Origin: a virus
Length of the DNA stretch: 64,000 nucleotides
Virus record (IMG/VR): IMGVR_UViG_3300043427_001796
Reading direction: 5' to 3' (one strand)
Made by a program: the position numbers and the translations under genes
Shown: one piece after another, positions 450 through 55,444 of the stretch
How positions within the stretch are numbered: the stretch's first letter is position 1
How the letters are laid out: the number at the start of each line of letters is the position of its first letter
Notes under the pieces: generated by a model
The model's database searches: none
Seen by the model: the letters and a program-made list of their open reading frames with translations, nothing else
What the model was told of the DNA's origin: nothing

Positions 450-3400
450 ATGTCTCTTACAAGACTTGATAATCTGTATTCCAGCAAAACTGGAAAGTAT
501 CTGTATGTCTCTCCCGACGACTTTAACGCTACGGATACATTAGATAACAGAGGAAACTCACCACTCCGTCCATTCAAGACCATTCAAAGAGCATTCTTAG
601 AAGTATCTCGCTTCTCATATCAGCCTGGTGCTAATAATGATCGTTTTGATCAATTCAGCATCATGCTTATGCCTGGTGATCACTATATTGATAATAGACC
701 AGGACTAGTTAATTACAGTATCAATGGTAGTAATCAAAATAAAAATAGATATTACGATGCTGGTAATTTAATTGAATTAAACAGAGAATTTATTGCAAAT
801 GAAGCATATGCAAAGATGCTCAATGCAAATCCTGGATTTCTACCATCTACTGGAACCGTAGAAAATTTTATTAATAATGTTGCTGAAGTAATTGACTCGA
901 TCATTTACAATATTAAATTTGGCGGCAACGATAAAACTTTTGATGCATCTTTAGTATATCAAGATAACGCCACTTTATTTCAAAATGAACAGGCAGAATT
1001 ATTAGAAATTTATGAAAATGCAGCTGAAATTGCTACCTCAATAATTAAGCAAGAAATTATTATAACGTTATATCAAACTACATACACACAATCTTTCGAC
1101 CCATCAATTTCTGTGGGACCATCTGAATCCGGAGCAACGACACCGGATATTCCTTATGGTCAATTAGAAACATGTGCTGATGTTACAAGTGATTTAAATA
1201 CATTATTTGATATTATTGCTTCTGGTATTAATCAAATTTTAGATTTAGGTGATCGCACAGAACCAGAAACTTTTGGTGAACTTCCTATCTTTAATTTTAA
1301 CCAGGCAACTGGACAGTGGGAAGATAATTCCATCATAGATTTAAGAAGTCCAGACAATATCTATTGGAAGTTCAATGCTTCTACTGGTGGTGCAATTGTT
1401 CCTAGAGGTTGCTCACTGGTTGGATATGATCTTCGTAGAACTATTGTAAGACCACTCTATGTTCCTGATCCATCTGATGGAACACAAGAAAGAACATCAA
1501 TATTTAATTTAACTGGTGGTTGTTATATTTGGCAGTTTACAATTAAAGACGGAGACCTCTCTTCAAATTCTCCATTGTATGATTCTGCCGATAAAGTTGG
1601 TAAAGTATATTACCAAAAAGGAAATGTTACTAATTTAGCTGTTCCTGAATATTCACACCACAAAATCTGCATTATGGAATATGCAGAAAATTTTGAATTA
1701 GATGCTTATTATAAAAAAGTTGCCGTTGCGTTTTCAAAATATCAACCAACTATTGATGATCCTGGTGAATTTGATGTATTGGTTCAGGAAAATAGAATTG
1801 TTGGACCTCTTTCGGATACAACTTTTATCGAAAGTATTAAACCAGTAGATACCAACTTAGGTGAACCCAATCAAAAATTAGTATTAAATGTAACAACTAA
1901 AGTTAATCATGGTTATTTTAAGGATCAGTATGTTGCAGTATTAAATCTTGGTTTAGACGAAGAGTTAAACGGCACATTTAAAGTAGCAAGCATTGATGCT
2001 AATAATCCCAAAGTATTCACTTACGAAATTCCTGGAAAGGTAGCAGCTGGATTAGGACTTACAAATAATGCTGTATATACATCAGGTTCCTCACTCAATT
2101 CAAATGCTGTAGTTCAAGCTGAAATTGACTCTGTTGAATCTGCATCTCCATATGTATTCAACTGTTCGATTCGTTCGATCTGGGGTCTATGCGGTATGTG
2201 GGCAAATGGATCCAAGTCAACTGGATTTAGATCCATGGTTGTCGCTCAATATACTGGTGTATCCCTGCAGAAAGACGATAGAGCATTCATTCGCTACGAT
2301 GAATTTACTAACACTTGGAATCAAGCATCGTTAACAGATGCCTTTGCTTCTGTTCCTTATCATGCAAAGGGCGATTCTTACTGGAAGGATGAATGGAGAA
2401 ACTTCCACATTCGTGCTTCAGATGATGCATTCGTTCAGTGTGTGTCTGTGTTTGCTGTGGGATTCTTTGACCACTTCTTGATGGAATCTGGTGGCGACAT
2501 GTCCATCACCAACTCCAACTCAAACTTCGGTAACACTTCACTTCACTCTGTAGGTCATAAAGGATACTCATTTAACCAGGATAAGGGTGGATATATTACT
2601 CATATTATCCCACCTCAGCAAATTGTTGGTGGATATCGCCCTACTATTTTTGGTGATTCTATTAATTCAACTGAAATTCCATACTATCCAATTGATGTTC
2701 CAACTTCAAACGATCCTGGTAATTTTACTCGTCTTTACTTAGGAACCAACGAAGCATATGATCCATCTAAAAAACCAGCCTCAACATTAAGTGGATACCG
2801 ACTTGGTGCTAGACCGGGAGAAAAATTATATGTTGAATTGGAACCAATTACTCCAGGTGGAAATAATTTATTTGAAGCAACTTTAACTCCAACAGGAATT
2901 GAAACGTATAATGTTTCTGTAAATTTCTTAAATCCTACTGGAATTACCATTAATCAGAGAGCACAGGATGCTTCTAATTTAATTGGATATAATAAACAAT
3001 TCATTCAAGATGAAGTGTATGGATATATTACCGCAAAATATCCCGATCTTTTGAATAATTCAAATATTGACATCCTTACATGTAAAAGAGATATTGGTTA
3101 TTATGTAGATGCTGTAGTTAAAGATTTGAGACTTGGGGGAAATGTTAATAGCGTTCAGACAGCAGAAGGATATTTTTCTGCAAATGAATTAATTTACATT
3201 GAAAATGAGTTAAGTGAAACAATTGATGCTCTTGGCGTAACAAAAGATTTTTGCCTCGCAGCAATGCGTAACTGGAATTACCTACTGACTGGATGCAAAA
3301 CTGAAACAAGCAGTAGTATTATTGAAGTCCCATCAACAAAGGGATTAGTTGTTGGTATGAAGGTTACTTCATACTCTTCTTACGATTCATTAACTCAGAC

Positions 3401-13965: not shown

Positions 13966-13979
13966 TAAACAAAATTAAT

Positions 13980-14945: not shown

Positions 14946-14954
14946 CTAATCATT

Positions 14955-19259: not shown

Positions 19260-19526
19260 ATGGAAAAGACTTATCAATCTGTTCGCAAAGATCGTCTTGT
19301 TGATGTCATTGGTGATTATCTCACTGATGAAGAATGTTCAGCAGAACAATTCTATAACGAATTAGTTGGTGAAATTGATACCTGGATTGAATATCATCGT
19401 AAATTCCTTGAGAAGGCTAAACTTGTCAAGAAAATGGTAAATGGTCATCGCCCACTGACTTTTGAAGATGACACCATCACCAACTATAGTCCACAATATC
19501 TTGCTGAAGATATTCTCGCGCTGTGA
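19260..19526 (+). CDS. hypothetical protein
   Basis: ORF; likely start at ATG 19260. Confidence 0.7.
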   Translation: MEKTYQSVRKDRLVDVIGDYLTDEECSAEQFYNELVGEIDTWIEYHRKFLEKAKLVKKMVNGHRPLTFEDDTITNYSPQYLAEDILAL

Positions 19527-20143
19527 AAAACCTCTGGAAAAACTATAAGCAAGCAATTCACGATACCTTCCCAGAACTCAAACAAGTAGAACTCTGGAAT
19601 CACTGGGAAGGTAAGATGACGATGGATGCTTATGTCTATCGTGGTGGTCATTTCATGCGAACTAGAGAAGCACTGGTCCGCAATGATACTACAGACATTT
19701 ACAATCATGTGCTGTATCCCTACACTGGCAAGAATACACCATGCTTCAGTGTAGACTTGATGGGATTCTTTGAGAACAAAGTGATCATCGTATTTGATTT
19801 CCAGCATCCTGTAGAGAACTATAAGTTCAGTGTTGGTGATAGACTACCCAAAGACACTGGTAAATATAGATTTTTTGAGATGGGAAATCATTTTAGTGAG
19901 CATATCTTTGTTCGCAAATGTACAATGTCAGAGGTTGATAACTATCTGGATGATTTTGTATCTTATTTGTCAGTATACAAGGAAATAGTTTATAACGATG
20001 CTCCTTTTAGTATAGATACATCAGCATACAAAGATTTTGACTCATATATGCGTAAACTTGACCCCATTTCTGGGTATATGAATAACATTTACGACAAAGA
20101 TAAGTCTAAATCATTTGTTGAAGAGTTCCTATTCATTTACTAG
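19523..20143 (+). CDS. pebS: phycoerythrobilin synthase (ferredoxin-dependent bilin reductase)
   Basis: DIYN.VLYP.TG...PCF..DLM....KVIIVFDFQHP, GKYRFFEMGNHFS, DFDSYM..LDP, FLF; closely matches phage PebS as recalled. Confidence 0.93.
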   Translation: MKNLWKNYKQAIHDTFPELKQVELWNHWEGKMTMDAYVYRGGHFMRTREALVRNDTTDIYNHVLYPYTGKNTPCFSVDLMGFFENKVIIVFDFQHPVENYKFSVGDRLPKDTGKYRFFEMGNHFSEHIFVRKCTMSEVDNYLDDFVSYLSVYKEIVYNDAPFSIDTSAYKDFDSYMRKLDPISGYMNNIYDKDKSKSFVEEFLFIY

Positions 20144-41715: not shown

Positions 41716-44700
41716 ATGACGATCAAGCTATCCAGTTTAGTAAGAAGACAACTTCCGGAGTTCATTTCTACTCACTATAGTACATTTGCGTCTTTTCTAG
41801 AAAAATATTACGAAAGTCTAGAGATTACAGGGCAACCATTAGATATTTTATCTAATATTGCAAATTACTATGATATAAATTTTTACGAAAAAAATCTTCT
41901 TCAGAAAGGAACAAATTTATCTTCATTTGTTTCTGTAAATGATGATGAAATTGAATTGGATGACGCTATAGCATTTCCGGAAGAATATGGTTATGTGAAA
42001 ATAGATAATGAAATTTGCTTTTATACTAAAAAAGAAGGAAATACACTCACTGGTGTTTATAGAGGAATAAGCGCATCTACAAAATTAGGTGATCTGTATA
42101 ATAAAAGCGAATTTGTATCTTCAAATTCGGAAAATCATGCTGTCGGAACTTATGTTCAAAACATAAGCAATCTTTTCTTATTTGCTATTTTAAAAAGTTT
42201 TGAGGCACAATATCTCTCTAGCATTCCAGAGAAATATCTTAACGAAAAGATTGATAAAAGAACTTTAATCAAAAATATTACAGATTTTTACAGATCAAAA
42301 GGATCGGAAAAATCTATACAATTTATATTCAATTCACTTGTTTCAACTGATCCATCTGATAAAGCAACGATTAGAAGACCTTCCGATCTAACTCTAAGAT
42401 CTTCAGATTCAAACTGGATTACTAGTTATAGAATTAAAATAGACGTAATTTCAGGTAATCCAAAGAATTTAATTGGAAAAGTATTAGAACAATCAGATCC
42501 ATATGCTTATGCAGTTATAGAATCTGTAGATGTATCAAATAAATTCACAGATTTGATAATAGATCCAACATCAATTGTCTCAGAATTTAAGTATTATGGA
42601 TATACTGAATTGCTGAGTCCAATTTCTTCTCTAGACCAACAAAATTTCAAAATTGAAGTTGTTTCAACTAGTGCATGGAAATCTGCTGATAAAAGTCTTT
42701 ATATAGGAAATGAAGAATTTGATATTGTTGAGAAGAACGTAAATCAATTTACGATTAAATCTAGATCAGGAACATCTTCGTTTAGTCCAGGTTCTATTGT
42801 ATATCTCCAGAAACCATATGAAGTAAATGGGGTAAAATTTAACATTACTGGATCCATTTATAATTTAAGACCAAAAACAAAGAACCCTTATTCAGTAAAG
42901 GGTGATCCTATCTTACAGTCGAAGTTTGCAAAGAGTAGTATTGATCCAATTGTGTATGATGCAAGTTCATCTTCATATAGATGGATTGAAAATCAAAATA
43001 GAGAGAGACCAGTAATCCCAACTTTATCAAATTTACAAAATCAATTATCTTCTGTAAATGCAAACGTTTCTGCAATATTAGATGATGAAACTTATTTTTA
43101 CATCTGTTCATCTGGATATCCTTCGTATCCAATCCTTGCTGATACAATGTTATCAGGCAATCAATCTTTAAGTGAAAATAATTATTTAAAACTGGTAAGA
43201 AAATCTCCAATTTTTAGTCCAGAAATCTATGAAACTAATTCATATGATGTCGGAATTTTTGTAGACGGGACACTTGCATATAGTAAAAAAAGTGATTCTT
43301 TTGTAAGAACTGGACCAATAGTAAAAACAAATTTAATTAATAAAGGATTTGGTTATAAAAATCCTCCTATTGTTTTAGTTAACGGATCTGCATCAAAAGC
43401 AGTAGCAATTCTTTCCGGTAATGTTGTATCAGAAATAAAAATTCTCACTACTCAATCATACAAAAAAACTCCAAGTATTTTTATAACTTCTGGAAGAAAT
43501 GCTGCTCTTAAAGCAGTTGTTACTAATGGAAAACTTACCAGTATTGTTATTGAAAATCCTGGCGAATATTATGTTTCTCCCCCACAAATTATTGTTCGTG
43601 ATTTAAATGGCAGAGGAAAATTTGCAGAATGTGAGGCAGTTGTATCTAACAGTGGAAAAATAATTGGTGTTAATATAATTAATCAAGGTAAAAATTATAG
43701 TTCAAATTCTATTGTAATTGATGTAATTCCTCAAGGTAGAGATGCAGAAGCTGAGGTTGAAATTGAAAAGTGGTATTACAATAGATACAATGAAATACAA
43801 GAAAATAATATTGACTATAACGGTGGCAGTCTAGTAAACAAAAAATTTGAGTCTAAAAAAACATATGCTATTGTATCCAATCCGAAAAGATTGAGATATA
43901 GTATTGGTGATAACATCAGTAGCATCTTAGCAGAGCAACCAACTGAACATTCCAAAATACTTGGATTTGCCTACGATGGTTATCCAATTTATGGTCCTTA
44001 TGCATATCAAAATCCACTTGATAGCGAATCAAGTATCGTGAGAATGAATAGTGGATATGTTCTTAATAATTCTAGAACTAATGGACCATCAATTGTAACG
44101 CACCCATTAGGAATTTTTGATAAAGATTATACATGGGTTCCCAATTTAAATTCTGGCAAGACTTTCTTAGATCAAAATAATGGAAGATATTGTGTAACTC
44201 CAGAATATCCAAATGGCACATACGCATATTTTGTGACAATTGATTCTGGTGGAGAACCAGAGTATCCTTACATTATTGGCAAAAATTATTATGGAATACC
44301 CGTAGATTCAAATTATAATCAACCAATCACGCAAAATGATATTCCATCGTCTGCCAAATTACTAGACTTCTCCTCTTATGTTAATAATGGTATTAATTTT
44401 TCAGCTTTAGTATCTGAAGTTGAAAAAGGATCTATTGATGGATTTACCATTGATGATGTAAATTCATTACACAATCCGGGCAATTTATTGTTTGTAAATA
44501 ATGACGGCACAGGTGGCGAAGGATTTGTCGGGTCAGTAGAGTCGGTATTGGGAGAAAATGTAAGTTATATTAATTCTAAAAATAGTGTATCTGTTTTATC
44601 TGCAAACTCTAATGTATATTTGTTTGATGGTTATAATTTACAGGAACAAAATACATCGAGAGTTGGAAAAATAGTTGGTGATGTTTTATTTGATAATACT

Positions 44701-47700
44701 ATTATTTTAGAAGAAATTAGCGACACATTTGATGGCGAAGAAAAATTTGATATGAGAGATCCAGATACTGGAGAAATTATCAAAATTTTAAACATATTTT
44801 TATCCAAAAATTCTACTTTTACTGCTAATGCCACTGTATCACTTACTGATGGATTTAATAGACCAGATTCAGTAGTTGCTGTTGGAACTATTCTAGAATC
44901 TGCATCCAATCAAAATGTTTTGAAAGTATTAGTGGAATCTGGAGATTTTAGTCTTGGAATTGAAAATGATGCTCTTTTCCTACAAAGTTCTGTTTCTTCA
45001 GATGATGTAGGAACTGGTATTGTTGTTCTAAATTCTCTCAGTGAGAATATTGAAATTTTAAATTTTAAATATAATTTTGCTATTGTAAAAACAGAGAATC
45101 CTCATAATTTAGCGATAGGAGATAATGTCAATGTTTCTATAAATCCGGATGATTCTTCAACACAAAAAACTTTCTTTGTGAGAAAAAGATTATTCCAAGA
45201 ATTGAAATTACGTGATAGAAAAATAAAAGCAAAATTACGTGATACTGGAATTGGAAAATTTTCAATTTTATCTAGTGGAACATTCAGAAGTTCTGGAACT
45301 TATACTACAACTTTAGGTAATGCTTCAGTTCAGGTTGTTATTACAAATAATACAGTATCTAATATAACAATTTTAGATAAGGGTTCTGATTTTGTGGAGG
45401 ATCAGCAATTAAGATTTGATGCTGTTTTAGTTCCAGATCCTTTGGATGCATCTAAGCAAGTCTTCTTGACTGATTTTGGTGTTTACATGGAGAAGAATTC
45501 TGTATTTGTGTGTAGAGTTGATCACGCAGGATTTGGAATTGGTAATACAGAAATGAAATTATCAATCGTTGAAAATATCTCCAATGATGATTTACTTTCA
45601 ATAGGAAAAGAAATTGTTAAAGTATTAAATGTTGATTATGCAAATAAATTAGTTTCGGTTCAAAGAGCTCAAAATGGAACAATTGCATTAGAGCATTTTG
45701 ATGGTGCCGATGTTTCGTTTTATGATTTTTCTTATAGATTTAATCGTGATTCTTTTATTCCTGAATTGGGGACAAATCCAACTTCAAGTCCTAAAGTATA
45801 TTCATATGATCGTAATAGTAATGTATTAGTCCTTTATTACCAATATGGAGCATCACTATCATCGACCATTGACATATCATTAAGTAATTTCTTCAAAGAT
45901 GAAAGTTTTGAAAGAAAAGATGTTTTAATTTCTTCTGTGGGAGAGAAGAAATTTAAATTAGAATTTTCAGAGGATAACGAAGATAATTTTGTAGTGAATC
46001 CAAATATTAATATACAAAATTATTACAAATATATTTTCAAAACTGGACATCCGAGTATGTATCAAACATATTTGGACTTTTCGCCAAGTTTAAAGTATAA
46101 TTTAATAACACAAGAAAAAATTGTTGGCGATGCCGATCCTGGAACAAACTCACCAAATTCTTTTGTTTCACTAAAATTTGGATTTGGACCAGCATTAGAA
46201 ACTAATACATATACTTCTAAAGTATTAAATAGATTTTCAAATTATTATTATTTTATAGTTGCAAGCGGTGTAACTACAGATAATGCTAAATTATCTGTAG
46301 TTGAGGATCCATTGACGGGATCAAAAAATGTTGCGTATGTCACTAGCAATAAATTTTTATACGAATTAAATGCTACGCCGCAGGAAAATGGGTCTGGGGA
46401 GATTTTCTACTCAACATCTTCACAAAATGCTCTAGGTTTAATTAATTCATTGAAAGTAAACAACTCTGGAAAAAATTATGCTGATATTCCAGTAGTTATA
46501 GGAGTAGAACCCGCAAGGTCGAGAAAAGCATTATTAACAGCAGTCATGAATCTTAGTGGTGGTGTTGATTCATTTATCATTAACGATTCCGGAGTTGGAT
46601 ATATCAATCCTAAAATTATTTTGGATGGTGATGGGAGTCAAGGAATATTTCAAATTGCTTTGAATCAAAATGGTGGCGTAATATCAGTAAAAATTTTGAA
46701 CGGTGGACTTGGATACACTAAAATTCCAAAAGTTTATGTTATCGAGGATTCAAATAAAATTTATTTGACATCCAAAAATATTGGAATTCCAAAAACAATT
46801 GAAATAACTAGTTCCGGTAATAATTTTACTACCGATACTACAACTTTACCTAATTTTACATCAACTTATGCTGTTCTACTTTCTGATATAGGTGATGCAT
46901 CATTTTCTCCAGGAAGAATAGTAAATCAATATGACAACTTTAATAACTTAATTTTTAGCGGAAAGGTATCCAAAAATGGTCTTAAGCGAGGATCTAACAT
47001 AGTTAGATTTGAACAAGTTTTTGGAGATATATCTAAAAATTATCCATTAAATGGTGCTAAAATTATAGCAATTTTATATACAAATTACGAATCTGAAATT
47101 AGATCTTTTTATGATAAGTCTGGATATTTTGGATCCGAAAAAGGATTTACAAGTTCGGTAAATTCTAATATAACCGATTCATATTTTTATCAAGATTATT
47201 CTTATGTGATAAGATCTAAGACCCCTATTGAGATTTGGAGAAGTTTAATTAAAGATGTAGTTCACCCAGCTGGATTCCAGTTATTTGGTGAAGTTGTAAT
47301 TGAAGCAAATACTGGCATAGTAGGACAAACTACACAACAAACTTTAACTCCAATTGTATTGACTATCAATACAGGGGTTCAATCTGCAATCACAATTAAT
47401 ACTAGAACTCAGGTTACTGAAACAATACTTTCTGTATCTGATACAAATGTACAAAGAGGCGTTGGAAGATTACATTTTTCTGAATTTTATGATGATTCAA
47501 ACATTGCAAAAGAAATCTATCTAAGTCCAAATTTTGATGGGTATATTGATCCTGATAATAATATTCAATTGGGAACAAAGACATTTAATATTCTTGATAC
47601 GAAATCTAATCAACCTGTATTTCCATATGATGAAAATTCTGTAATTGTTAGTCTTTCTGGTGTAATACAGGAACCAAAAGTATCTTATACAATTGAAGGA

Positions 47701-50700
47701 TCAACTATAACATTTGCATCGGCTCCTCTAGGAGAAAGAATTTCTGAAGGTCAGTCTTTACAATCCGATCCATTTATCGGAAGAGTTTTTGGATACAGAA
47801 CCGAAGAAGATAATCAAAAATATTTTAAAAAGATAAAAAATATTTTCCAAAGAAGTGGAATATGGTTGGATGCTGCCAATCAAATACATTTCAATAGAAA
47901 TTTTATTGTTGAGGAAACATTTGGATATTTAAATAATAAGTATCCAAATCTTGAATTTAATACAGAAAAGTGCAAAAGAGACATTGGATATATTATAGAT
48001 TCGTTTGAACACGATTTAAGATTTGGCGGAAATTTAAAAACTGTCACATCTGGAAATTTTTACTTTAATGCTGCAGAAGAACTTCAATTTATTAATGATG
48101 AATTAGAAGAAACAAAAGATGCTTATAAGTATGCAGCAAAATTATGTGCCGCAGCTATCAGAAATTGGGATGTGGCATTTATTGATGATCCAAATACATT
48201 AGATCCTGAATTTGAAGTTATAGTTTCCGCCAATAGTGATGTTATTACTGTTCCATCTACTTTTGGAATTGTTGAGGGAATGTATGTTAGTTCTGGATCT
48301 CAATTTCCATCTGGAACTAAAGTGATAGAAATTATGAATGATACTAATGTCAGAGTTAGTTCAAATTCCTTTGCTAACATAACAGACGAAGAAGTATTTG
48401 TATTTGACATTCCCATTGGTCAAGTGGTATTGCCACCTGTAGGAAGCACTGAGGTTGAGTTCAATTATAATGGCGTTATTATACAAACAGACGCAGAACT
48501 GATAGTTTCTGATGGCATAACGGTTTCGATTACAGCACAAATTGCTAAATTGAGGCAAGTTAGATTTTCATTGAGTAGAATTAATACTGGAAAATATGTA
48601 GACGCATCGAATTTAATTTATGTCAACCGTGAATACATAATTGACGAAACCATTTCATATATTAATTTAACTTATCCGGGATTTTCATATCCAAGTGAGA
48701 AAAAATGCAGGAGAGATATTGGGCATTTAATTGACGCAGTAATTTATCATCTTAGATATGGTGGCAATAATAGACTAGTTGATTATGCAGAAAAATACTA
48801 TTTTGCAAATAAATTAAATTACATTAATGAAGAACTAACTCAAACTGTAGTTGCCTTTGAGTATTCTATTGCCTTAATGTTGGATGCTATAGAGAATCCA
48901 GGATCTCCTTTCCAGACAGTAAATTATGTTGTGGCATCAGACGATGTAAATCCACTAGATTTATGCATCGAAGTTAAGTCAACTATTAATGCGTATAGAG
49001 ATCTTTATACCTTTATTTTAGAAAATGGACCTAATTTAATTGAAAGAAATTTTGGAGAGGTTCAGAAGTCTGGAAATTATACAGAATTGTTAACTTTTTC
49101 AAATTATAATTTAATCGATGACGAAGAGTTACAATTATCGACTCAAATTAATGGTGTTTGGTTTGCTTCAGAATGTGCAAATGTTATTTCCAGTCTTTAC
49201 AATTTACAGCAATCTTTAGATCAAATTTTAACTTCTGGAGTTGATTCTGTAGATATCTCTGGTCCAGATTATTTTAACGGTGAAACAAAGCAGTTTGAAT
49301 TATATACAGATTCAAATGCTATACTAAAAACAGATCCAGACGAAAATTTATTAATTTTCATAAATGGAGTTTTACAAAGAACGACATCTTATAAAATTTT
49401 AAGATCGGAAAATCCACAACAAACTGATATTATTGAATTTACTGAGGCACCAAGATGGGATCAAAATGAAGCACAATTATTATTGAACCAGGGGACTGCA
49501 GTTGATTATTTTTATGGGTTCTCAATTGGAAATTATCAAAGAAGAACCATAGATAAAACTTATTTTAAATATGAATCTAGTTATAGAATTGTTTCCGAAA
49601 ATGGATATTCTATTGATCCAATATTTGATTCTAGATTCCATTTAGTTTTCGTTGATGGAGTTTTGCAAAGAAACAAAATTGATTATAATATCGATCAAAC
49701 TAGAATAATATTTAAAGAGAAATTAAATTACTATACTCCAGCAACTGGAGAAAACTTACTTTCAAATGTTGACATCATTTCTTTCTCTGGTGAAAAAAAT
49801 AAAGATACTTTTATAGGATTTGATTTTCAACCAGGATCTTATTCATTAACAGCAACATTTGATGTTTATGATGACGATAATTCACAAGATAACATTTACG
49901 AAATTATTACCCAGTGGAATGCTCCTTCTAGGTCTTATCCTATAGACATTATTGACGAATATGGTCCTGTTGGACGAGTATTGAATTATGTTCAAGTAAA
50001 TTCTCCTTACTCAGGCGTAAGATTTACAATCATTACCGATGTAATTAGAGAAGTTATACAAGAATCAATAACATTACGTAAAGATTTGCCTTATGTAAAC
50101 GACATTACGCTATCAATTGCTGCTCCTTTAATAATAAGTGGAAATTTTGTAGTTCCTGGACCTGGAGAATATATTGTTGGCGCAATAAATGTAACATCAG
50201 GGTCTACCGTGACTGTTCCTGAAGATACAACTCTTATCTCTATATCTAATATCACAGATGTAAATTATGAGACAAACAATGATGGAGAAAAAATTCTTAG
50301 AAGAGCAAACGCTGTTCATATTCATGATGATAGAAGAATCGCAAATAAAAACTGGAGAATTCTTAACAAATTAACAGCTAATATATTGGAAGGTGATAAG
50401 ATAAAAGTTGATGGTGAAGAAGAATACAGAGATGTATTAAAATTACCTGACATAGTAAAAACTACTCAAAATAATTTATATACGCCAGTATCCAAAAAAA
50501 CATATGGTAATATTATAACTTCTGTATCAGATAAGAAGCCTAAAGGTAGTGGTCTTAGAATTAACCCCATATTGGATTCGCAAGGAAGAATTGTTTCTTT
50601 AGATTATGGAAAAGATGACTACATAAGATCAAAATTATTAAATCTTCCATCCAGAAAAATTGGACTATATCCAAAAGAAATTTATGTAGACTTTTTATCT

Positions 50701-52704
50701 GCAGATGGAAACGGAGGCGGAGCTTTTGCAAAGGCTTTCATTCTGAATAACGAAATTATAAGTGTTGAGATCGTTAGTAGTGGATTTGGGTATACAAGTC
50801 CACCGATACCTTATGTTTCTAGAGGATATGATATTATCAAATCTCATAGAAATGCTTCATCTACATTTAAAAAGGAAAGGAATATTATAATTCCATTTAC
50901 TTTGAGTGTAGATAAACAAATTGAGGTTATTGATCCAAGCCTAATCTTCAACGCTCCTTCTTTCCTTTCTGTTGGTTTGCCAGAAGATATTCTGGAATAT
51001 ACCACTACATTAGGATTTGAAGTATCGACAAGAACTGCTGGTGAACTTACTATAATTGCAATTCCTCAAGAACTTGTTAAGACATATCCAGATTATGTTG
51101 TATCATTTGATCCTTCAGTATTAGTTAATGAGACTTTATGGACTTTACCATCTGAATATAGTGTTTCTATTGGAGCATCACAATCTACCAATTCTGAAGT
51201 AACATACACTACAGAATTTTCTGTTTCTATTGGCGAATCTCTAAGATTCCCAGAAAATATCAATCAATTGGCAACACTTGTCAATATTGATTTCCTCGAC
51301 ACAGATACGGTGTTGTATGTTACATCAACATCCGGTTTTGATGATTTTGGTTATCTGCAAGTAGGAACAGAAGTTGTCAAATATACTGATAAGCAAGCTG
51401 ATAGATTCTTTATTACGGAAAGGGGAGTATTTGGAACATCCACACCTGCAATTCATCCAATTGGAACTTTTGTATCCACGTTCCTACCAAATATAAACGC
51501 CAATAGTGCAACGTTTAATTATATTGAAGTAGATGATATTTTTGATACCCCTATTCATGCTGGGACAGAAATTTACAGTATTGCCCAAACAAATATAGCA
51601 CAAAATGTTGATTTTGTTACTGCGGATGATACAGTAATTAATTATTATCTACAACCAGAAATTTATATTCAAACTAATAGATTTGAATCTGAATTAACAA
51701 TAAATTACATCTCTCAGATTCCAATCACAGATTTAACAATCCTAGTTGAAAATGCTGAGGTTTCTCTGTTTACATCTACAGAATCTATAGAGGATGTAGT
51801 TATACTGAATGCATCTATGTCGAATTTTGCCGACACATCTGTAAATATAACGACACAAGCATTTATTGAATACACTACTGCAAATATAGATTCCTATGAT
51901 CAAATAACAAATACTATACAATCTTACGAAATATTTGATGTCGTAGATACAACGCCAGCAGAATTTGCAATACTCTTCAACACAGAATCTGATCAAAATC
52001 TTTCCATTGCTAATGTAAACCGTGAAACACAATCTCAAATTGTATTCAATGGAAATATTACCCTATCAAATATCAGTGACCAATTATCATTATTCTTTGA
52101 AACTCCATCTTCTATAGAGCAACTGTCTGCTAATATAATAGAAAGTGATAGTGAGATTTTACAAATATTTGATCAACCAGTAAATAGTGAAATTAATGTA
52201 AGCGAGATAATCCTCGGTAGTGTTGATGTCATTTCACAAATTATATTTACCCCATTTGACATTGAAATAAATCCAGGAAGTTCCTTAAATATTGTTGATA
52301 GGGAAATTTCCGAACAACTTACAAATAGGTCATATGAATATGGAGAGATACTAAATGAAGTTGAAATTATTTCTAAACTAGATATTAATATAGAATATGG
52401 TAACATTGAGAGTATTATTGACGTAATTAATGTTGTAGATAATTCTTCAATTAATGAATTTACTGCTGTTATTAATGTAGGAAATAATTTAAATATTATT
52501 CAGCAAGAAATTCGTAAGCAACCCGAAGATTTACTTCCAGAATACGGAAATATAAATGATACAGTTGAAATTACTAGTATACTAGATATTAATAGAGAAT
52601 ATGGAAATATTGAGAGCAATATGAATATTACCACTAGACTTGATCGTGCTGCCATTGATGAATTTAATGAGACTATTAATGTAGGAGATATCGAGACAAA
52701 CTAA
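41716..52704 (+). CDS. gp7: giant baseplate wedge initiator (gp7-like, 3662 aa) with YHYH-type, phycobiliprotein-like and acidic repeat regions
   Basis: Position between gp6 and gp8; QLPEF...FLEKYY, FYRSKGS, DSYFYQDYSYVIRS...VHPAGFQLFGE. Confidence 0.85.
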   Translation: MTIKLSSLVRRQLPEFISTHYSTFASFLEKYYESLEITGQPLDILSNIANYYDINFYEKNLLQKGTNLSSFVSVNDDEIELDDAIAFPEEYGYVKIDNEICFYTKKEGNTLTGVYRGISASTKLGDLYNKSEFVSSNSENHAVGTYVQNISNLFLFAILKSFEAQYLSSIPEKYLNEKIDKRTLIKNITDFYRSKGSEKSIQFIFNSLVSTDPSDKATIRRPSDLTLRSSDSNWITSYRIKIDVISGNPKNLIGKVLEQSDPYAYAVIESVDVSNKFTDLIIDPTSIVSEFKYYGYTELLSPISSLDQQNFKIEVVSTSAWKSADKSLYIGNEEFDIVEKNVNQFTIKSRSGTSSFSPGSIVYLQKPYEVNGVKFNITGSIYNLRPKTKNPYSVKGDPILQSKFAKSSIDPIVYDASSSSYRWIENQNRERPVIPTLSNLQNQLSSVNANVSAILDDETYFYICSSGYPSYPILADTMLSGNQSLSENNYLKLVRKSPIFSPEIYETNSYDVGIFVDGTLAYSKKSDSFVRTGPIVKTNLINKGFGYKNPPIVLVNGSASKAVAILSGNVVSEIKILTTQSYKKTPSIFITSGRNAALKAVVTNGKLTSIVIENPGEYYVSPPQIIVRDLNGRGKFAECEAVVSNSGKIIGVNIINQGKNYSSNSIVIDVIPQGRDAEAEVEIEKWYYNRYNEIQENNIDYNGGSLVNKKFESKKTYAIVSNPKRLRYSIGDNISSILAEQPTEHSKILGFAYDGYPIYGPYAYQNPLDSESSIVRMNSGYVLNNSRTNGPSIVTHPLGIFDKDYTWVPNLNSGKTFLDQNNGRYCVTPEYPNGTYAYFVTIDSGGEPEYPYIIGKNYYGIPVDSNYNQPITQNDIPSSAKLLDFSSYVNNGINFSALVSEVEKGSIDGFTIDDVNSLHNPGNLLFVNNDGTGGEGFVGSVESVLGENVSYINSKNSVSVLSANSNVYLFDGYNLQEQNTSRVGKIVGDVLFDNTIILEEISDTFDGEEKFDMRDPDTGEIIKILNIFLSKNSTFTANATVSLTDGFNRPDSVVAVGTILESASNQNVLKVLVESGDFSLGIENDALFLQSSVSSDDVGTGIVVLNSLSENIEILNFKYNFAIVKTENPHNLAIGDNVNVSINPDDSSTQKTFFVRKRLFQELKLRDRKIKAKLRDTGIGKFSILSSGTFRSSGTYTTTLGNASVQVVITNNTVSNITILDKGSDFVEDQQLRFDAVLVPDPLDASKQVFLTDFGVYMEKNSVFVCRVDHAGFGIGNTEMKLSIVENISNDDLLSIGKEIVKVLNVDYANKLVSVQRAQNGTIALEHFDGADVSFYDFSYRFNRDSFIPELGTNPTSSPKVYSYDRNSNVLVLYYQYGASLSSTIDISLSNFFKDESFERKDVLISSVGEKKFKLEFSEDNEDNFVVNPNINIQNYYKYIFKTGHPSMYQTYLDFSPSLKYNLITQEKIVGDADPGTNSPNSFVSLKFGFGPALETNTYTSKVLNRFSNYYYFIVASGVTTDNAKLSVVEDPLTGSKNVAYVTSNKFLYELNATPQENGSGEIFYSTSSQNALGLINSLKVNNSGKNYADIPVVIGVEPARSRKALLTAVMNLSGGVDSFIINDSGVGYINPKIILDGDGSQGIFQIALNQNGGVISVKILNGGLGYTKIPKVYVIEDSNKIYLTSKNIGIPKTIEITSSGNNFTTDTTTLPNFTSTYAVLLSDIGDASFSPGRIVNQYDNFNNLIFSGKVSKNGLKRGSNIVRFEQVFGDISKNYPLNGAKIIAILYTNYESEIRSFYDKSGYFGSEKGFTSSVNSNITDSYFYQDYSYVIRSKTPIEIWRSLIKDVVHPAGFQLFGEVVIEANTGIVGQTTQQTLTPIVLTINTGVQSAITINTRTQVTETILSVSDTNVQRGVGRLHFSEFYDDSNIAKEIYLSPNFDGYIDPDNNIQLGTKTFNILDTKSNQPVFPYDENSVIVSLSGVIQEPKVSYTIEGSTITFASAPLGERISEGQSLQSDPFIGRVFGYRTEEDNQKYFKKIKNIFQRSGIWLDAANQIHFNRNFIVEETFGYLNNKYPNLEFNTEKCKRDIGYIIDSFEHDLRFGGNLKTVTSGNFYFNAAEELQFINDELEETKDAYKYAAKLCAAAIRNWDVAFIDDPNTLDPEFEVIVSANSDVITVPSTFGIVEGMYVSSGSQFPSGTKVIEIMNDTNVRVSSNSFANITDEEVFVFDIPIGQVVLPPVGSTEVEFNYNGVIIQTDAELIVSDGITVSITAQIAKLRQVRFSLSRINTGKYVDASNLIYVNREYIIDETISYINLTYPGFSYPSEKKCRRDIGHLIDAVIYHLRYGGNNRLVDYAEKYYFANKLNYINEELTQTVVAFEYSIALMLDAIENPGSPFQTVNYVVASDDVNPLDLCIEVKSTINAYRDLYTFILENGPNLIERNFGEVQKSGNYTELLTFSNYNLIDDEELQLSTQINGVWFASECANVISSLYNLQQSLDQILTSGVDSVDISGPDYFNGETKQFELYTDSNAILKTDPDENLLIFINGVLQRTTSYKILRSENPQQTDIIEFTEAPRWDQNEAQLLLNQGTAVDYFYGFSIGNYQRRTIDKTYFKYESSYRIVSENGYSIDPIFDSRFHLVFVDGVLQRNKIDYNIDQTRIIFKEKLNYYTPATGENLLSNVDIISFSGEKNKDTFIGFDFQPGSYSLTATFDVYDDDNSQDNIYEIITQWNAPSRSYPIDIIDEYGPVGRVLNYVQVNSPYSGVRFTIITDVIREVIQESITLRKDLPYVNDITLSIAAPLIISGNFVVPGPGEYIVGAINVTSGSTVTVPEDTTLISISNITDVNYETNNDGEKILRRANAVHIHDDRRIANKNWRILNKLTANILEGDKIKVDGEEEYRDVLKLPDIVKTTQNNLYTPVSKKTYGNIITSVSDKKPKGSGLRINPILDSQGRIVSLDYGKDDYIRSKLLNLPSRKIGLYPKEIYVDFLSADGNGGGAFAKAFILNNEIISVEIVSSGFGYTSPPIPYVSRGYDIIKSHRNASSTFKKERNIIIPFTLSVDKQIEVIDPSLIFNAPSFLSVGLPEDILEYTTTLGFEVSTRTAGELTIIAIPQELVKTYPDYVVSFDPSVLVNETLWTLPSEYSVSIGASQSTNSEVTYTTEFSVSIGESLRFPENINQLATLVNIDFLDTDTVLYVTSTSGFDDFGYLQVGTEVVKYTDKQADRFFITERGVFGTSTPAIHPIGTFVSTFLPNINANSATFNYIEVDDIFDTPIHAGTEIYSIAQTNIAQNVDFVTADDTVINYYLQPEIYIQTNRFESELTINYISQIPITDLTILVENAEVSLFTSTESIEDVVILNASMSNFADTSVNITTQAFIEYTTANIDSYDQITNTIQSYEIFDVVDTTPAEFAILFNTESDQNLSIANVNRETQSQIVFNGNITLSNISDQLSLFFETPSSIEQLSANIIESDSEILQIFDQPVNSEINVSEIILGSVDVISQIIFTPFDIEINPGSSLNIVDREISEQLTNRSYEYGEILNEVEIISKLDINIEYGNIESIIDVINVVDNSSINEFTAVINVGNNLNIIQQEIRKQPEDLLPEYGNINDTVEITSILDINREYGNIESNMNITTRLDRAAIDEFNETINVGDIETN

Positions 52705-53288
52705 TGGCATTCTTTCCTCTTTCCAAACCAATACAGGTTTTATTATTTGATGGAACTTTAATTGGAGTAAATAATTTATACTATTATTCTCCAATACTTG
52801 ATACATACACAACTGGACCAAGTATTGGTAATTGGGAATCTTTCGATCTGGAACATAATTGTGAGTCGGGAACAATAAGATTTCAATCCTCAAAAGATAT
52901 CAATTTAGATTCAAATCCTCCATTATTGTATATCTCTCCAGTATCAATATTTGATCAAGATTCAACTTTAACATTAGAAACTTTCTTTTCTAGACCAAAA
53001 TCTATAATAGATATCAAAAATACTAAATTAACTGGCATAGTATTGCCATCAATTAATTTATCTGGTGCCTTATTTGATACATTTACATCACCAACTATAT
53101 TGAGAGTTCAAGGATCAAATAATCCTTTACAAAAATTTCCATCATCTGGTAAAATTCTCATAAATAAAGAAGTTATTTCTTACACAGGAAAAACATCAAA
53201 TACTTTGACAGGTGTAATCAGAGCGCAAGATGGAACGGTTTCGACAACTCACGCATCTGGTTCATATCTTAGAACGGTGACTATTTAA
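52704..53288 (+). CDS. virion protein, possibly a split-off gp7 C-terminal domain
   Basis: FPSSG.I.INKEVISYTGKT...LTGV.R...T....H repeat also seen within the gp7-like protein; TAATG coupling. Confidence 0.7.
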   Translation: MAFFPLSKPIQVLLFDGTLIGVNNLYYYSPILDTYTTGPSIGNWESFDLEHNCESGTIRFQSSKDINLDSNPPLLYISPVSIFDQDSTLTLETFFSRPKSIIDIKNTKLTGIVLPSINLSGALFDTFTSPTILRVQGSNNPLQKFPSSGKILINKEVISYTGKTSNTLTGVIRAQDGTVSTTHASGSYLRTVTI

Positions 53289-53344: not shown

Positions 53345-55444
53345 ATGGCTGATACTGCTTTAATTACGGATAAGTTTAGAGTTTATAACGCTAAACAATT
53401 TCTAGAATCTTTCGATGAGACAGCATCGACAAACCATTTCTTCTTTGTCGGAAAATCTGCAAATTGGCAGACATTGATTGAATACTATCAATATGACAGT
53501 AATAATGGTGCTAATGAAGTTACGGTTGGAGATCCTATCAGTATTGAAACTCTGTCTGGATACCCAACAACAACTCATGCAACAGTAACTGCAGTGTTGG
53601 ACGGAGCAATTCTGGTGACTGGTTTGGATCCTGCCGCTCTCACAACTCTAAAGTTTGGTTTAAATTTCAGCTGGGATGGTGCTGGTGGTAACGGGGACGC
53701 AAAAATTCTAAAAATTAGACCAGCAACAGAAGACGAACCACTTCGTCCACTCGATAATCTTGAAGAGAAGTATAATTATTATAGAGAGATTATCGCTGCA
53801 AAGAGAATTTATAACGATAAACTTGGAGAAGGAGTAGGAACCTCTCCAGATGGAAGTTTTGTAAGACCTGTTGTTAACAGACTTGATTATGGAAAGAATG
53901 CTGACATTGGTTTCACAGATCGCGTAGAACCATATGACATGTGGCGTCATAATTACGCCAACACAAACAATTTCAAGAGACTATCACAAGAATCTGGTCT
54001 GTGGCAAGGAACAGCATCAACTTCAAATCTGGAAATGATTGTTAGATGCCCAGATTACTCCGTTTGGATGTGTATTGACAATAATAGACAAGCTAATGGA
54101 GATGGAGCTACTCCAGACCTCTTTAATGGTCCTTCTACTTCCAGTCCAACACAGCTTCCAGAAGCGGTTGGATATTGTTCTCTAAATGGTGTATATACAA
54201 CTACTAATGGTTATAAGTGGAAGTATCTTTACACTCTATCAATCGAAGAAGTTCTAAGATTCCAATCACAGAAGTTTATTCCTGTGGCACCTTTTGCTGG
54301 TGTTTCTGTTGTTGGACCAGAAGTAGTTACAATTCTTCGTGGTGGAACTGGATATCTTGGTGGCGGAAGTGGCGAACTTTATGCTCCAATCAATGGTGAT
54401 GGTCAGATTAGCGATACTGAAATGAAGATCGCTAAACTCACAATTACAAATGGTGTTATTACAAAAGCTCGTGTTCTTACTACTGGTGGGACAACTCCAG
54501 AAACAACTAAGACACCTACCGAATACTCATTTGCAAAGGTTAAATTAGTTCCAGGTGCTGCTTTAGCAGTTCCAGATGGACAAAAGTATGGTCTATACAA
54601 AAATGCCACTTTAACAACTCTCGCAGTTTTAAACACTGACGTTCCTGCTAACGTATTAAACAGAGGAGATGTTGAGGTTGTAATTCCACCTCAAGGTGGA
54701 TATGGTGCATCGGGTAATGTTGGAACAGAAGGTTTTGGCAAATTTATTGAGCAACTCAATGCAAAGAGAGTTATGTGCAATATTCGCCTAACCTTTGCTG
54801 AAGGCGCAGGAGATTTCCCTGTAACCAACGACTTTAGAAGAATTGGTCTACTAAGAGATCCTCTTGCTTTTGATGGTGCTGGCGGTGCAGTAATTGATAA
54901 CACAGACGCTCCTGCTTATGATACAGCTCGTCAAACATATGCTTTAGCATTTAATACTGGAGCTGGAAATACCTATGTTGGTAATTTTACAGTTGATGAA
55001 ACAATTACTCAGACACTTACTCTAACTGGTGGACTTAGTGTTCAAGCAAAAGCAATTGTTACAGAATGGATTCCCAATGATGATGCTGATCCAACTGCTG
55101 GTGGTATTTTAAGATATTATCAAGATCCAGCACTTCACTCAGCAACAAATGGAAAGGTATATCCATTCTATACTGGAGCCTCAGGTGCTGTAACTGCAGT
55201 TAGTGGTCTTACTGGATCAACTAGCGGTTCACATGGATCAAATGCTCCTGACTTTGCTACAGGAAATACAGCATACAGCGCAACTGCTTTAGGTTTAACT
55301 GTAGATTCTGTTGCATTAACTGCAAAAGATCTATATCCTGAACTTCAACCATATAGTGGAGAAATCATCTATGTTGAAAATAGAAGATTAATTACTCGCG
55401 CTATTGACCAAATTGAAGATATTAAACTAGTTATTGAATTCTGA
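53345..55444 (+). CDS. gp8: baseplate wedge subunit gp8
   Basis: ITDKFRVYNA..F, GYKWKYLYT, NDFRRIGL, SGEIIYVENR..I.R..DQIEDIKLVIEF. Confidence 0.92.
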   Translation: MADTALITDKFRVYNAKQFLESFDETASTNHFFFVGKSANWQTLIEYYQYDSNNGANEVTVGDPISIETLSGYPTTTHATVTAVLDGAILVTGLDPAALTTLKFGLNFSWDGAGGNGDAKILKIRPATEDEPLRPLDNLEEKYNYYREIIAAKRIYNDKLGEGVGTSPDGSFVRPVVNRLDYGKNADIGFTDRVEPYDMWRHNYANTNNFKRLSQESGLWQGTASTSNLEMIVRCPDYSVWMCIDNNRQANGDGATPDLFNGPSTSSPTQLPEAVGYCSLNGVYTTTNGYKWKYLYTLSIEEVLRFQSQKFIPVAPFAGVSVVGPEVVTILRGGTGYLGGGSGELYAPINGDGQISDTEMKIAKLTITNGVITKARVLTTGGTTPETTKTPTEYSFAKVKLVPGAALAVPDGQKYGLYKNATLTTLAVLNTDVPANVLNRGDVEVVIPPQGGYGASGNVGTEGFGKFIEQLNAKRVMCNIRLTFAEGAGDFPVTNDFRRIGLLRDPLAFDGAGGAVIDNTDAPAYDTARQTYALAFNTGAGNTYVGNFTVDETITQTLTLTGGLSVQAKAIVTEWIPNDDADPTAGGILRYYQDPALHSATNGKVYPFYTGASGAVTAVSGLTGSTSGSHGSNAPDFATGNTAYSATALGLTVDSVALTAKDLYPELQPYSGEIIYVENRRLITRAIDQIEDIKLVIEF

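What the first reader, a model, noticed from the sequence alone, without database searches (positions are those of the whole stretch)
47869..49250. Two nested phycobiliprotein-like domains in the gp7-like baseplate protein, each with Cys84- and Cys155-type cysteines
Seen: DAANQIHFNRNFI...KYP...KCKRDIGYIIDSFEHDLRFGGN (Cys2086) and DASNLIYVNREYI...YP...KCRRDIGHLIDAVIYHLRYGGN (Cys2331). These are followed by two closing helices, LCIEVKSTINAYRDLYTFIL (Cys2417) and ECANVISSLYNLQQSLDQIL (Cys2487). The order suggests copy 2 is inserted within copy 1. The closing helices resemble the beta-phycocyanin terminus DCSALASEIASYFD (the beta-155 site, recalled). Inference: up to four bilin sites on the baseplate, which triggers adsorption and contraction. 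An alternative is that the two Cys of each domain form a structural disulfide.
Basis: partly seen in the sequence, partly recalled or inferred. Interest (0 to 1): 0.9.

Follow-up and report, generated by a model that had tools for sequence, protein, structure and literature searches.

The report
Phycobiliprotein-like pigment domains in cyanophage baseplate
The giant baseplate protein of this marine cyanobacterial virus holds two domains, one nested in the other, that are true relatives of its host's light-harvesting pigment proteins and keep the pigment-attachment site, so the virus particle may carry a pigment and perhaps sense light, which nobody has tested.

Summary
All six motifs and Cys2086, 2331, 2417 and 2487 lie at the stated coordinates in a 3662-aa ORF at the gp7 position (gp25-gp6-ORF-gp8). 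The two copies are a real duplication (38% identity, E 1e-25).

The fold is phycobiliprotein (PBP)-like. A profile of copy 2 hits only PBPs in the PDB (phycocyanin alpha, E 2.7e-4), with Cys2331 on Cys84, Arg86 and Asp87. Predicted models match allophycocyanin and ApcE (Z 14-14.5, rmsd about 2 A). Helix 2418-2437 is helix H of copy 2. Nesting of copy 2 inside copy 1 is probable, with only weak direct support.

The same ~105-aa unit occurs 14-37 times in other giant cyanophage proteins. In 2239 copies the Cys, Arg and Asp are 99-100% conserved. In gp7 copy 1 of a sister clade this site is lost as a unit while the fold core stays invariant, which points to a ligand site.

Bilin binding is my leading reading (about 45%) but is unproven. 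"Four sites" and the beta-155 resemblance are not shown. The proposed Cys84-Cys155 disulfide does not fit the conservation pattern.

All 391 matching phage records are cyanophages, and the window also encodes PebS. This scan noted the same kind of domain before on other DNA (e1-5339572, e1-5335498).

The parts
41716..52704 (+). Giant gp7-position baseplate protein (3662 aa)
   Evidence: ORF. Synteny is gp25 (39523-39912), gp6 (39914-41710), this ORF, then gp8 (53345-55444). PHROG hits are 4406 'virion structural protein' and 2885/708 'baseplate wedge subunit'.
47851..48165 (+). PBP-like copy 1, helices A to G (aa 2046-2150), with intact C-x-R-D site (Cys2086 = nt 47971-47973) and Cys2144 (nt 48145-48147)
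   Evidence: Family HMM E 5e-42. AF2 pLDDT 85. VIA-align: allophycocyanin 8imk_G Z 12.5, rmsd 2.1 A over 102 aa, model 1-105 = PBP 33-144. The Foldseek top 50 are all phycobiliproteins.
48169..48570 (+). Beta-rich insert between copy 1 helix G and copy 2 (aa 2152-2285)
   Evidence: The AF2 model shows strands at model residues 124-257, partly at low confidence. No Pfam family matches.
48583..48897 (+). PBP-like copy 2, helices A to G (aa 2290-2394), with C-x-R-D site (Cys2331 = nt 48706-48708)
   Evidence: Family HMM E 1.4e-40. A profile of 71 orthologues hits phycocyanin alpha at E 2.7e-4, and all 43 hits are PBPs, with Cys on Cys84. Cys is kept in 62/66 orthologues.
48964..49026 (+). Cys2417 plus helix H of copy 2 (aa 2417-2437)
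   Evidence: Model 263-408 aligns to allophycocyanin 34-158 (Z 14.0, rmsd 1.8 A) and to the ApcE bilin-binding domain (Z 14.5). Cys is invariant in 66/66.
49174..49236 (+). Cys2487 plus second closing helix (aa 2487-2507), the probable helix H of copy 1
   Evidence: Helix at model 460-479 with pLDDT 91-93. It is homologous to the first closing helix. Cys is invariant in 66/66. Complex prediction with copy 1 gave weak support, 0.50 against a best control of 0.07.
2955..3305 (+). A further intact copy of the same domain (TCKRD, Cys878; Cys935 at family position 100) in the tail-fibre-like giant ORF 450-10229
   Evidence: Family HMM E 9e-29. The ORF matches PHROG tail-fibre families.
738..1064 (+). 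Degenerate copy of the domain in ORF 450-10229 that has lost the Cys, Arg and Asp
   Evidence: Family HMM E 5.6e-12. The motif reads ENFINN in place of KCxRD.
19523..20143 (+). Phycoerythrobilin synthase (PebS) homologue, a possible pigment supplier
   Evidence: Pfam PF05996 at 56 bits, cut-off 31. It is 51.6% identical to P-SSM2 PebS.

Best explanation
Shown: aa 2046-2507 of the gp7-position baseplate protein is built from two domains that are remote homologues of phycobiliproteins (PBPs). They have the globin-like fold without the N-terminal X-Y arm. Copy 2 (helices A to H) sits, together with a beta-rich insert, between helix G of copy 1 and a final helix that probably closes copy 1. The same ~105-aa unit is a cyanophage-specific building block. 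This phage's fibre protein holds two more copies, and other giant virion proteins hold 14-37.

Inferred: the domain keeps a working ligand site made of the Cys84/Arg86/Asp87-equivalent triad plus family positions 69, 72, 85 and 89. Each intact copy (Cys2086, Cys2331, fibre Cys878) most likely binds a bilin by a thioether bond. The bilin would be taken from the host pool or made through the phage's own PebS while virions assemble in the cell.

Speculative: the pigment could make the baseplate and fibres light-responsive. That would explain the light-dependent adsorption of cyanomyoviruses, which does not depend on host photosynthesis. This is undecided.
For: Homology:
- Pfam PF00502 scores 24.2 bits on aa 2030-2520, cut-off 22.2.
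- A profile of 106 diverse copies gives phycocyanin alpha as its best PDB hit (E 0.012); 27 of its 28 listed hits are phycobiliproteins.
- A profile of copy 2 reaches E 2.7e-4 with 43 of 43 hits PBPs, aligned in register KC-x-RD-x-GY = Cys84-Arg86-Asp87.
- PF00502 passes its cut-off on sister giant ORFs in other cyanophage contigs.

Fold:
- The AF2 models are confident (pLDDT 85 and 78).
- The Foldseek top 50 are all PBPs.
- VIA-align gives Z 12.5-15.7 to allophycocyanin, phycoerythrin, the ApcE bilin domain and photocobilins.

Site:
- In 2239 copies from 120 proteins, Cys42 is 100%, Arg44 99%, Asp45 100%, Tyr72 100% and Thr89 98% conserved, against 20-35% overall identity.
- These proteins have roughly one Cys per repeat and hardly any others.
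- In gp7 copy 1, the 51 sequences without the Cys also change Arg44 (24/51 kept), Tyr72 to Phe (41/51), Gly/Ala69 to Val/Thr/Leu, Glu/Gln85 to Asn and Thr89 to Ser/Ile. The core positions (N16, D56, F59, G60, G61, N62, Y95) stay 51/51. The triad is therefore not needed for folding, and small residues become bulky when it is lost, as in a filled-in pocket.

Context:
- All 391 phage records with the domain are cyanophages.
- The window encodes PebS.
- S-PM2 (9 copies) and P-HM2 (5 copies) adsorb only in light. P-SSM2, which adsorbs in the dark, has none (phenotypes from PMC6628666).
- The roles of phage bilin genes in Prochlorococcus phages are stated to be unclear (PMC2984593).
Against: - No pigment has been shown, and I know of no report of coloured cyanophage particles.
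- The unit lacks the X-Y arm, and most family copies also lack helix H (period 100-119 aa).
- The B-E loop that covers the bilin in PBPs is about 10 residues shorter (alignments).
- Sequence E-values are marginal.
- Only 2 of 106 single copies reach PF00502 at E < 0.01.
- The loss of the site in gp7 copy 1 is essentially one evolutionary event, a basal split in the tree.
- pebS is in only 31 phage records against 391 with the domain.
- P-SSM2 has pebS but no domain, so phage bilin genes and the domain are not tightly coupled.
- A second Cys at family position 100 recurs beside the site Cys (Cys2144, fibre Cys935, 4 of 5 P-HM2 copies). This could mean redox chemistry instead of a thioether.
- The adsorption correlation rests on three phages.
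Confidence: 0.45

Rival explanations
1. Pigment-free structural module. A host phycobiliprotein gene was captured and reused as a rigid helical bead for baseplate and fibre proteins. In this reading the conserved Cys-Arg-Asp and its partners form an inter-domain or inter-subunit contact or a buried polar network, and no bilin is bound.
For: Tandem arrays of 14-37 units with a 100-119 aa period look like a fibre-building repeat. The fold is truncated, with no X-Y arm, usually no helix H and a shorter B-E loop. Most phages with the domain lack bilin genes. No pigmented virions are reported in the papers searched.
Against: The residues kept at 99-100% are exactly those that hold the chromophore in PBPs. 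Natural variants that lost them keep the fold core intact, so they are not needed for folding. A purely packing role for Cys would tolerate Ala or Ser, yet Cys is 100% in 2239 copies.
Confidence: 0.33
2. Redox or disulfide role. The cysteines form disulfides, such as 2417-2487, 2086-2144 or between neighbouring repeats, once the virion meets oxygenated seawater. These would lock or tune the baseplate and fibres. Bilin is not involved.
For: Cys2417 and Cys2487 are both invariant in 66/66 orthologues. Cys2086 and Cys2144 occur together in 17 of the 18 orthologues that have Cys2086, and in none of the 48 without it. A Cys at family position 100 recurs in other intact copies.
Against: In the multi-copy proteins there is only one conserved Cys per unit and no partner column. 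The 2086/2144 pairing is one clade-level event with single losses on either side: P0077, P0079 and P0082 lost 2086, and L010 lost 2144. Direct-coupling analysis places position 100 against positions 13 and 50, about two helical turns from Cys42, although this signal is weak. A disulfide does not explain the invariant Arg and Asp.
Confidence: 0.17
3. Chance or convergent likeness. In this reading the domain is an unrelated helical bundle whose CxRD motif only mimics phycobiliproteins.
For: Single-sequence E-values are weak (0.18 to 1.3). Helical bundles often give middling Z-scores (note).
Against: Profile searches return only PBPs, apart from one type IV pilin chain at E 0.74, and in the same register over helices B to E. 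The structural matches (Z 12.5-15.7, rmsd about 2 A over 100-117 residues) stand above the unrelated rows and cover the whole domain including helix H. Pfam PF00502 passes its own cut-off on several family members.
Confidence: 0.04

Closest known systems
Phycobiliprotein alpha subunits (C-phycocyanin alpha, allophycocyanin alpha; Pfam PF00502)
   Same: Globin-like helices A to H. The motif K-C-x-R-D-x-G-Y on helix E is in register with Cys84, Arg86 and Asp87. These are the best sequence hits (E 2.7e-4) and the best fold hits (Z 14, rmsd 1.8 A).
   Different: There is no X-Y arm for alpha/beta pairing, and the B-E loop is about 10 residues shorter. The domains are embedded in 3000-6000-aa virion proteins, often as long tandem arrays without helix H. 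Overall identity is about 15-20%. No pigment has been shown.
Bilin-binding domain of the phycobilisome core-membrane linker ApcE (PDB 4xxi)
   Same: It is a PBP fold built into a very large multi-domain protein, and it attaches its bilin without a lyase (own knowledge). It is a strong fold match (Z 14.5, rmsd 2.1 A over 117 aa).
   Different: ApcE has one such domain, carrying a loop insertion, followed by linker repeats, and it sits in the phycobilisome. Here the domains are duplicated, nested or tandem, and sit in a phage baseplate or fibre.
Photocobilin bilin-binding domain (PDB 8j2y, 8j2w)
   Same: It is a PBP-like globin domain used outside light harvesting, as a photoreceptor module. The fold match is Z 11.4-11.8.
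   Different: These are cellular B12-coupled photoreceptors of non-photosynthetic bacteria. Sequence identity is only 6-11%.
T4 gp7 baseplate wedge protein
   Same: The gene lies between gp6 and gp8, and PHROG 'baseplate wedge subunit' families match.
   Different: The protein is about three times longer than T4 gp7 (own knowledge). It carries YHYH and PBP-like domains that I do not know from T4 gp7 (own knowledge; T4 gp7 was not searched here). The Pfam Baseplate_wedge match is below the cut-off (16.5 against 27 bits).

Membership tests
Phycobiliprotein family (Pfam PF00502) | Significant sequence match to the family profile | tested here: met
   24.2 bits on aa 2030-2520 against a cut-off of 22.2, which is marginal. 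The whole protein scores 17 bits, below the cut-off. The copy-2 profile against the PDB gives E 2.7e-4 with only PBPs.
Phycobiliprotein family (Pfam PF00502) | Globin-like fold with helices A, B, E, F, G and H | tested here: met
   Copy 2 plus helix 2418-2437 aligns to allophycocyanin residues 34-158 (Z 14.0, rmsd 1.8 A, 116 aa) and to ApcE (Z 14.5). This is a predicted model, not a solved structure.
Phycobiliprotein family (Pfam PF00502) | N-terminal X-Y helical arm that pairs alpha with beta subunits | tested here: not met
   The single-domain model aligns from PBP residue 33 onward. Family units start at the helix A equivalent. One low-quality alignment uses copy-1 helices in that place (rmsd 5.5-6.8 A).
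Phycobiliprotein family (Pfam PF00502) | Cys84 with Arg86 and Asp87 on helix E | tested here: met
   HMMER alignments put KC-R-RD of copy 2 and KC-K-RD of the family on KC84-A-R86-D87. The residues are 99-100% conserved in 2239 copies.
Phycobiliprotein family (Pfam PF00502) | Covalently bound bilin | not testable with these tools
   This needs expression with bilin synthesis, or virion mass spectrometry.
Phycobiliprotein family (Pfam PF00502) | Assembly into (alpha-beta)3 discs and phycobilisome rods | not tested
   Assembly was not modelled. The lack of the X-Y arm makes it unlikely.
Beta-subunit Cys155 (153) bilin site | Cys at the end of the G-H loop just before helix H | tested here: met
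   Cys2417 and Cys2487 are model residues 389 and 459, each one residue before a helix (390-409 and 460-479). Both are invariant in 66/66. This is positional evidence only.
Beta-subunit Cys155 (153) bilin site | Sequence likeness of the helix H start to beta subunits | tested here: inconclusive
   A 28-position profile of both closing helices found no PBP in the PDB. The best relatives of the domain are alpha subunits.
Beta-subunit Cys155 (153) bilin site | A T-type lyase (CpeT/CpcT) available | tested here: inconclusive
   No CpeT was found among about 30 window ORFs scanned with Pfam. The rest of the genome is not held. Hosts encode such lyases (own knowledge).
T4-type gp7 baseplate wedge protein | Position between gp6 and gp8 and a match to baseplate wedge families | tested here: met
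   gp25, gp6 and gp8 flank the ORF. PHROG 2885 and 708 'baseplate wedge subunit' match at E 5e-160 and 3e-50. Pfam Baseplate_wedge is below the cut-off.

The most novel reading that the evidence does not exclude
The PBP-like domains carry bilins and act as the virion's own photoreceptor. Light absorbed in the baseplate and fibres changes their conformation and permits adsorption or triggering. This would explain why S-PM2, P-HM1 and P-HM2 adsorb only in light regardless of host photosynthesis. It would also give phage PebS, HO and CpeT a viral target. It would be the first light-sensing virus particle.
Probability: 0.15. Interest if true: 0.95.

Novelty: new variant of a known kind. Interest (0 to 1): 0.8.

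Why it matters
Two puzzles in cyanophage biology are still open.

- Some cyanomyoviruses need light to adsorb even when host photosynthesis is blocked. Light-sensitive host receptors or tail fibres have been proposed, but no receptor molecule is known (PMC6628666).
- Phages of Prochlorococcus carry working bilin-synthesis genes, although the host has no phycobilisomes (PMC2984593).

A pigment-protein fold with its attachment site intact, placed in the baseplate and fibres of exactly these phages, offers one concrete target for both puzzles. It can be tested with routine experiments: co-expression with bilin enzymes, zinc blots, virion mass spectrometry and an action spectrum of adsorption.

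Even without pigment, this would be a clear case of a host light-harvesting protein being captured and rebuilt into a viral structural repeat. About 1600 cluster representatives in 1.84 billion proteins carry it, no Pfam family covers it, and none of the papers searched describes it.

Tried and rejected
- Whole-genome search of the window's own genome: none is held, so CpeT and heme oxygenase elsewhere in the genome could not be checked.
Occurrence in cellular genomes is therefore untested.
- Second homologous-protein search on the closing-helix region: it gave only 7 close orthologues.
- Profile of the two closing helices against the PDB: no phycobiliprotein, only thymidylate synthase at E 1.2.
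- ESM Atlas shape search: no row with TM above 0.5 that made sense.
- Pfam on single repeat copies: only 2 of 106 reach PF00502.
A mean-field direct-coupling analysis on 2180 copies was used instead. It recovers the helix A-E packing but gives only weak signals for helix E-G.
- Complex prediction for copy 1 with the last helix: weak support only, score 0.50 against a best control of 0.07, partner pLDDT at least 65, runs agreeing in at least 93% of contacts. A likeness to solved phycobiliproteins may contribute to that score.
- The idea that phage bilin genes always accompany the domain: rejected. P-SSM2 has pebS but no domain in a full six-frame HMM scan, and 391 records have the domain against 31 with pebS.
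- Gasper et al. 2017 on the phage CpeT lyase could not be read because it is not held. What I say about it rests on its title in a reference list and on my own knowledge.
Full report
**Where the finding lies**

The window is part of a T4-like cyanomyovirus. It carries Kyanoviridae Gp96 and PebS genes and a baseplate gene row: gp25 (39523-39912), gp6 (39914-41710), a 3662-aa ORF (41716-52704) and gp8 (53345-55444). The giant ORF therefore occupies the gp7 position. It matches PHROG families annotated as virion structural protein and baseplate wedge subunit. No ORF of 80 aa or more lies on the opposite strand under the finding.

**The observation**

- All six quoted peptides and Cys2086, 2331, 2417 and 2487 are at the stated coordinates.
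- A fifth cysteine, Cys2144, lies in the same stretch. Only 10 of the 3662 residues are Cys.
- Copy 1 (aa 2046-2175) and copy 2 (aa 2290-2425) align at 38% identity with E 1e-25.

**Is it phycobiliprotein-like?**

Sequence evidence:
- Pfam PF00502 scores 24.2 bits on aa 2030-2520, against a cut-off of 22.2.
- The single sequence gives only weak PDB hits, most of them to phycobiliproteins.
- A profile of 106 diverse copies of the unit (alignment A1) gives phycocyanin alpha as its best hit at E 0.012; 27 of its 28 listed hits are phycobiliproteins.
- A profile of copy 2 from 71 orthologues (A4) reaches E 2.7e-4, and all 43 hits are phycobiliproteins.
- In every alignment, K-C-x-R-D-x-G-Y falls on Lys83-Cys84-x-Arg86-Asp87-x-Gly-Tyr of helix E, and helix B aligns before it.
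- PF00502 also passes its cut-off on sister giant ORFs in two other cyanophage contigs.

Structure evidence:
- The AF2 model of copy 1 has pLDDT 85.
- Its Foldseek top 50 are all phycobiliproteins.
- An exhaustive VIA-align search puts allophycocyanin, phycoerythrin, photocobilins and the ApcE bilin domain on top. Z is 12.5-9.9, and the best match has rmsd 2.1 A over 102 residues, with model 1-105 equal to PBP 33-144.

The fold is the PBP globin fold without the X-Y arm. I treat the homology as established to a reasonable standard, with about 4% left for convergence.

**Nesting**

- The AF2 model of aa 2029-2522, built on 73 orthologous sequences, has pLDDT 78 and pTM 0.76.
- Copy 1 has helices up to G (model 102-120) and then runs straight into beta strands (124-257).
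- Copy 2 has helices 264-365, then a 24-residue loop, then helix 390-409.
- VIA-align matches model 263-408 to allophycocyanin 34-158 (Z 14.0, rmsd 1.8 A) and to ApcE (Z 14.5). The first closing helix is therefore helix H of copy 2.
- The second closing helix (460-479, pLDDT 91-93) is a gap-free homologue of the first, with a shared invariant Cys and a >=90% Val.
- Folding it together with copy 1 gave weak support only: score 0.50, best control 0.07, partner pLDDT at least 65, runs agreeing in at least 93% of contacts. That score may owe something to likeness with solved phycobiliproteins.
- I consider the nested reading probable, not proven.

**The family**

- A search of 5.8 billion proteins found 401 relatives.
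- Among the 120 listed, 16 are gp7 orthologues with two copies. About 100 are giant proteins of 2700-6400 aa with 14-37 tandem copies, mostly at a period of 100-119 aa.
- These giant proteins sit in T4-like structural gene rows next to gp13 or gp23, and on the same contigs as gp7-like genes.
- An exhaustive HMM search of 1.84 billion representatives found 1606 proteins.
- No Pfam family covers the unit.
- In the phage collection, all 391 matching records are cyanophages.
- In this window, the fibre-like ORF 450-10229 holds one intact copy and one degenerate copy.

**The site**

- Over 2239 copies, Cys42 is 100%, Arg44 99%, Asp45 100%, Asp56 99%, Tyr72 100% and Thr89 98% conserved. Overall identity is 20-35%.
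- The multi-copy proteins have about one Cys per repeat and hardly any others.
- In 66 gp7 orthologous regions taken from viral contigs, copy 2 keeps Cys, Arg and Asp in 62, 62 and 65 sequences.
- In the same set, copy 1 has Cys in only 18 and mostly Tyr instead.
- Copy 1 sequences without the Cys also change Arg44, Tyr72 (to Phe), Gly/Ala69 (to Val/Thr/Leu), Glu/Gln85 (to Asn) and Thr89.
- The core positions N16, D56, F59, G60, G61, N62 and Y95 remain 51/51 in those sequences.
- The triad is therefore not needed for the fold, and it behaves as one unit with four other positions.
- Small residues are replaced by bulky ones when the site is lost, as when a pocket is filled in.
- Caveat: the tree shows this is essentially one basal split.
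- Direct-coupling analysis also shows residual couplings among the near-invariant site positions (42-89, 44-89, 42-68, 45-68). This fits joint loss in rare degenerate copies.

**The other cysteines**

- Cys2417 and Cys2487 are invariant (66/66) and sit one residue before the two H helices.
- This is where beta subunits carry Cys155 (own knowledge). No sequence match to beta subunits was found, and the domain's nearest relatives are alpha subunits.
- These two cysteines could be bilin sites, a mutual disulfide, or something else.
- Cys2144 (family position 100) goes with Cys2086 in the window's clade. Each has been lost singly in some members.
- A Cys at position 100 recurs in copy 2 of another subclade, in the window's fibre copy (Cys935), and in 4 of 5 P-HM2 copies.
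- Coupling analysis places position 100 near positions 13 and 50, not near 42, though the signal is weak.

**Function**

I commit to bilin binding at the intact CxRD sites as the single most likely reading, at about 45%. A pigment-free structural module is close behind at about 33%.

Points in favour of bilin binding:
- The residues kept are the chromophore-holding ones.
- The domain is confined to phages whose hosts are full of bilins and lyases.
- This phage encodes PebS.
- Phage bilin genes lack an agreed purpose in Prochlorococcus phages.

Points against:
- The pocket is truncated.
- There is no report of coloured virions.
- The domain is only loosely coupled with phage bilin genes. P-SSM2 has pebS but no domain.

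The light-adsorption link:
- Adsorption of S-PM2, P-HM1 and P-HM2 needs light, independently of host photosynthesis.
- Light-sensitive receptors or fibres have been proposed for this (PMC6628666; PMC2984593).
- S-PM2 has 9 copies and P-HM2 has 5, with intact sites.
- P-SSM2, which adsorbs in the dark, has none.
- Three phages are far too few to count as evidence, but they make the idea testable.

**Novelty**

Searches of the paper library found no description of phycobiliprotein-like domains in phage virion proteins. This scan noted the same kind of domain earlier on two other genomes (e1-5339572 and e1-5335498) and on this same stretch read in another window (e1-5669757). Those are unchecked notes and I do not count them as evidence.

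Noticed in passing
window 19523-20143 (+): A phycoerythrobilin synthase (PebS) homologue: Pfam PF05996 at 56 bits, 51.6% identical to P-SSM2 PebS. No heme oxygenase or CpeT was seen among about 30 neighbouring ORFs scanned.
   Followed up: partly
window 450-10229 (+): A 3259-aa tail-fibre-like ORF with two more copies of the PBP-like unit. One is degenerate (aa 97-205, triad lost). One is intact (aa 836-952, TCKRD) with a second Cys at family position 100.
   Followed up: partly
window 52704-53288 (+): The 194-aa ORF directly after the giant gene matches the C-terminal part (positions 2886-2991 of 3231) of the same PHROG family as the giant protein. It is either a split-off tail of gp7 or a duplicated end.
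   Followed up: no
window 43936-44244 (+), aa 741-843 of the giant ORF: There is a strong YHYH domain (PF14240, E 7.5e-28) inside the baseplate protein. Its role there is unknown.
   Followed up: no
window 13312-16467 (+): Three separate 2OG-Fe(II) oxygenase genes (13312-13965, 14955-15638, 15973-16467) surround a tail-fibre assembly chaperone-like gene (13932-14945), just downstream of the fibre genes.
   Followed up: no
P-SSM2 genome NC_006883 (loci L096-L109): A full six-frame HMM scan finds no copy of the PBP-like unit in P-SSM2, although this phage carries pebS. S-PM2 has 9 copies and P-HM2 has 5. This parallels their reported dark or light adsorption behaviour (three phages only).
   Followed up: partly
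P-HM2 loci L112, L113: Four of the five P-HM2 copies carry a second Cys at family position 100, and three of the five have C-x-D-D instead of C-x-R-D.
   Followed up: no
window 55508-63706 (+): Another giant ORF (2732 aa) lies after gp8. It has three DUF4815 stretches and no PBP-like unit.
   Followed up: no
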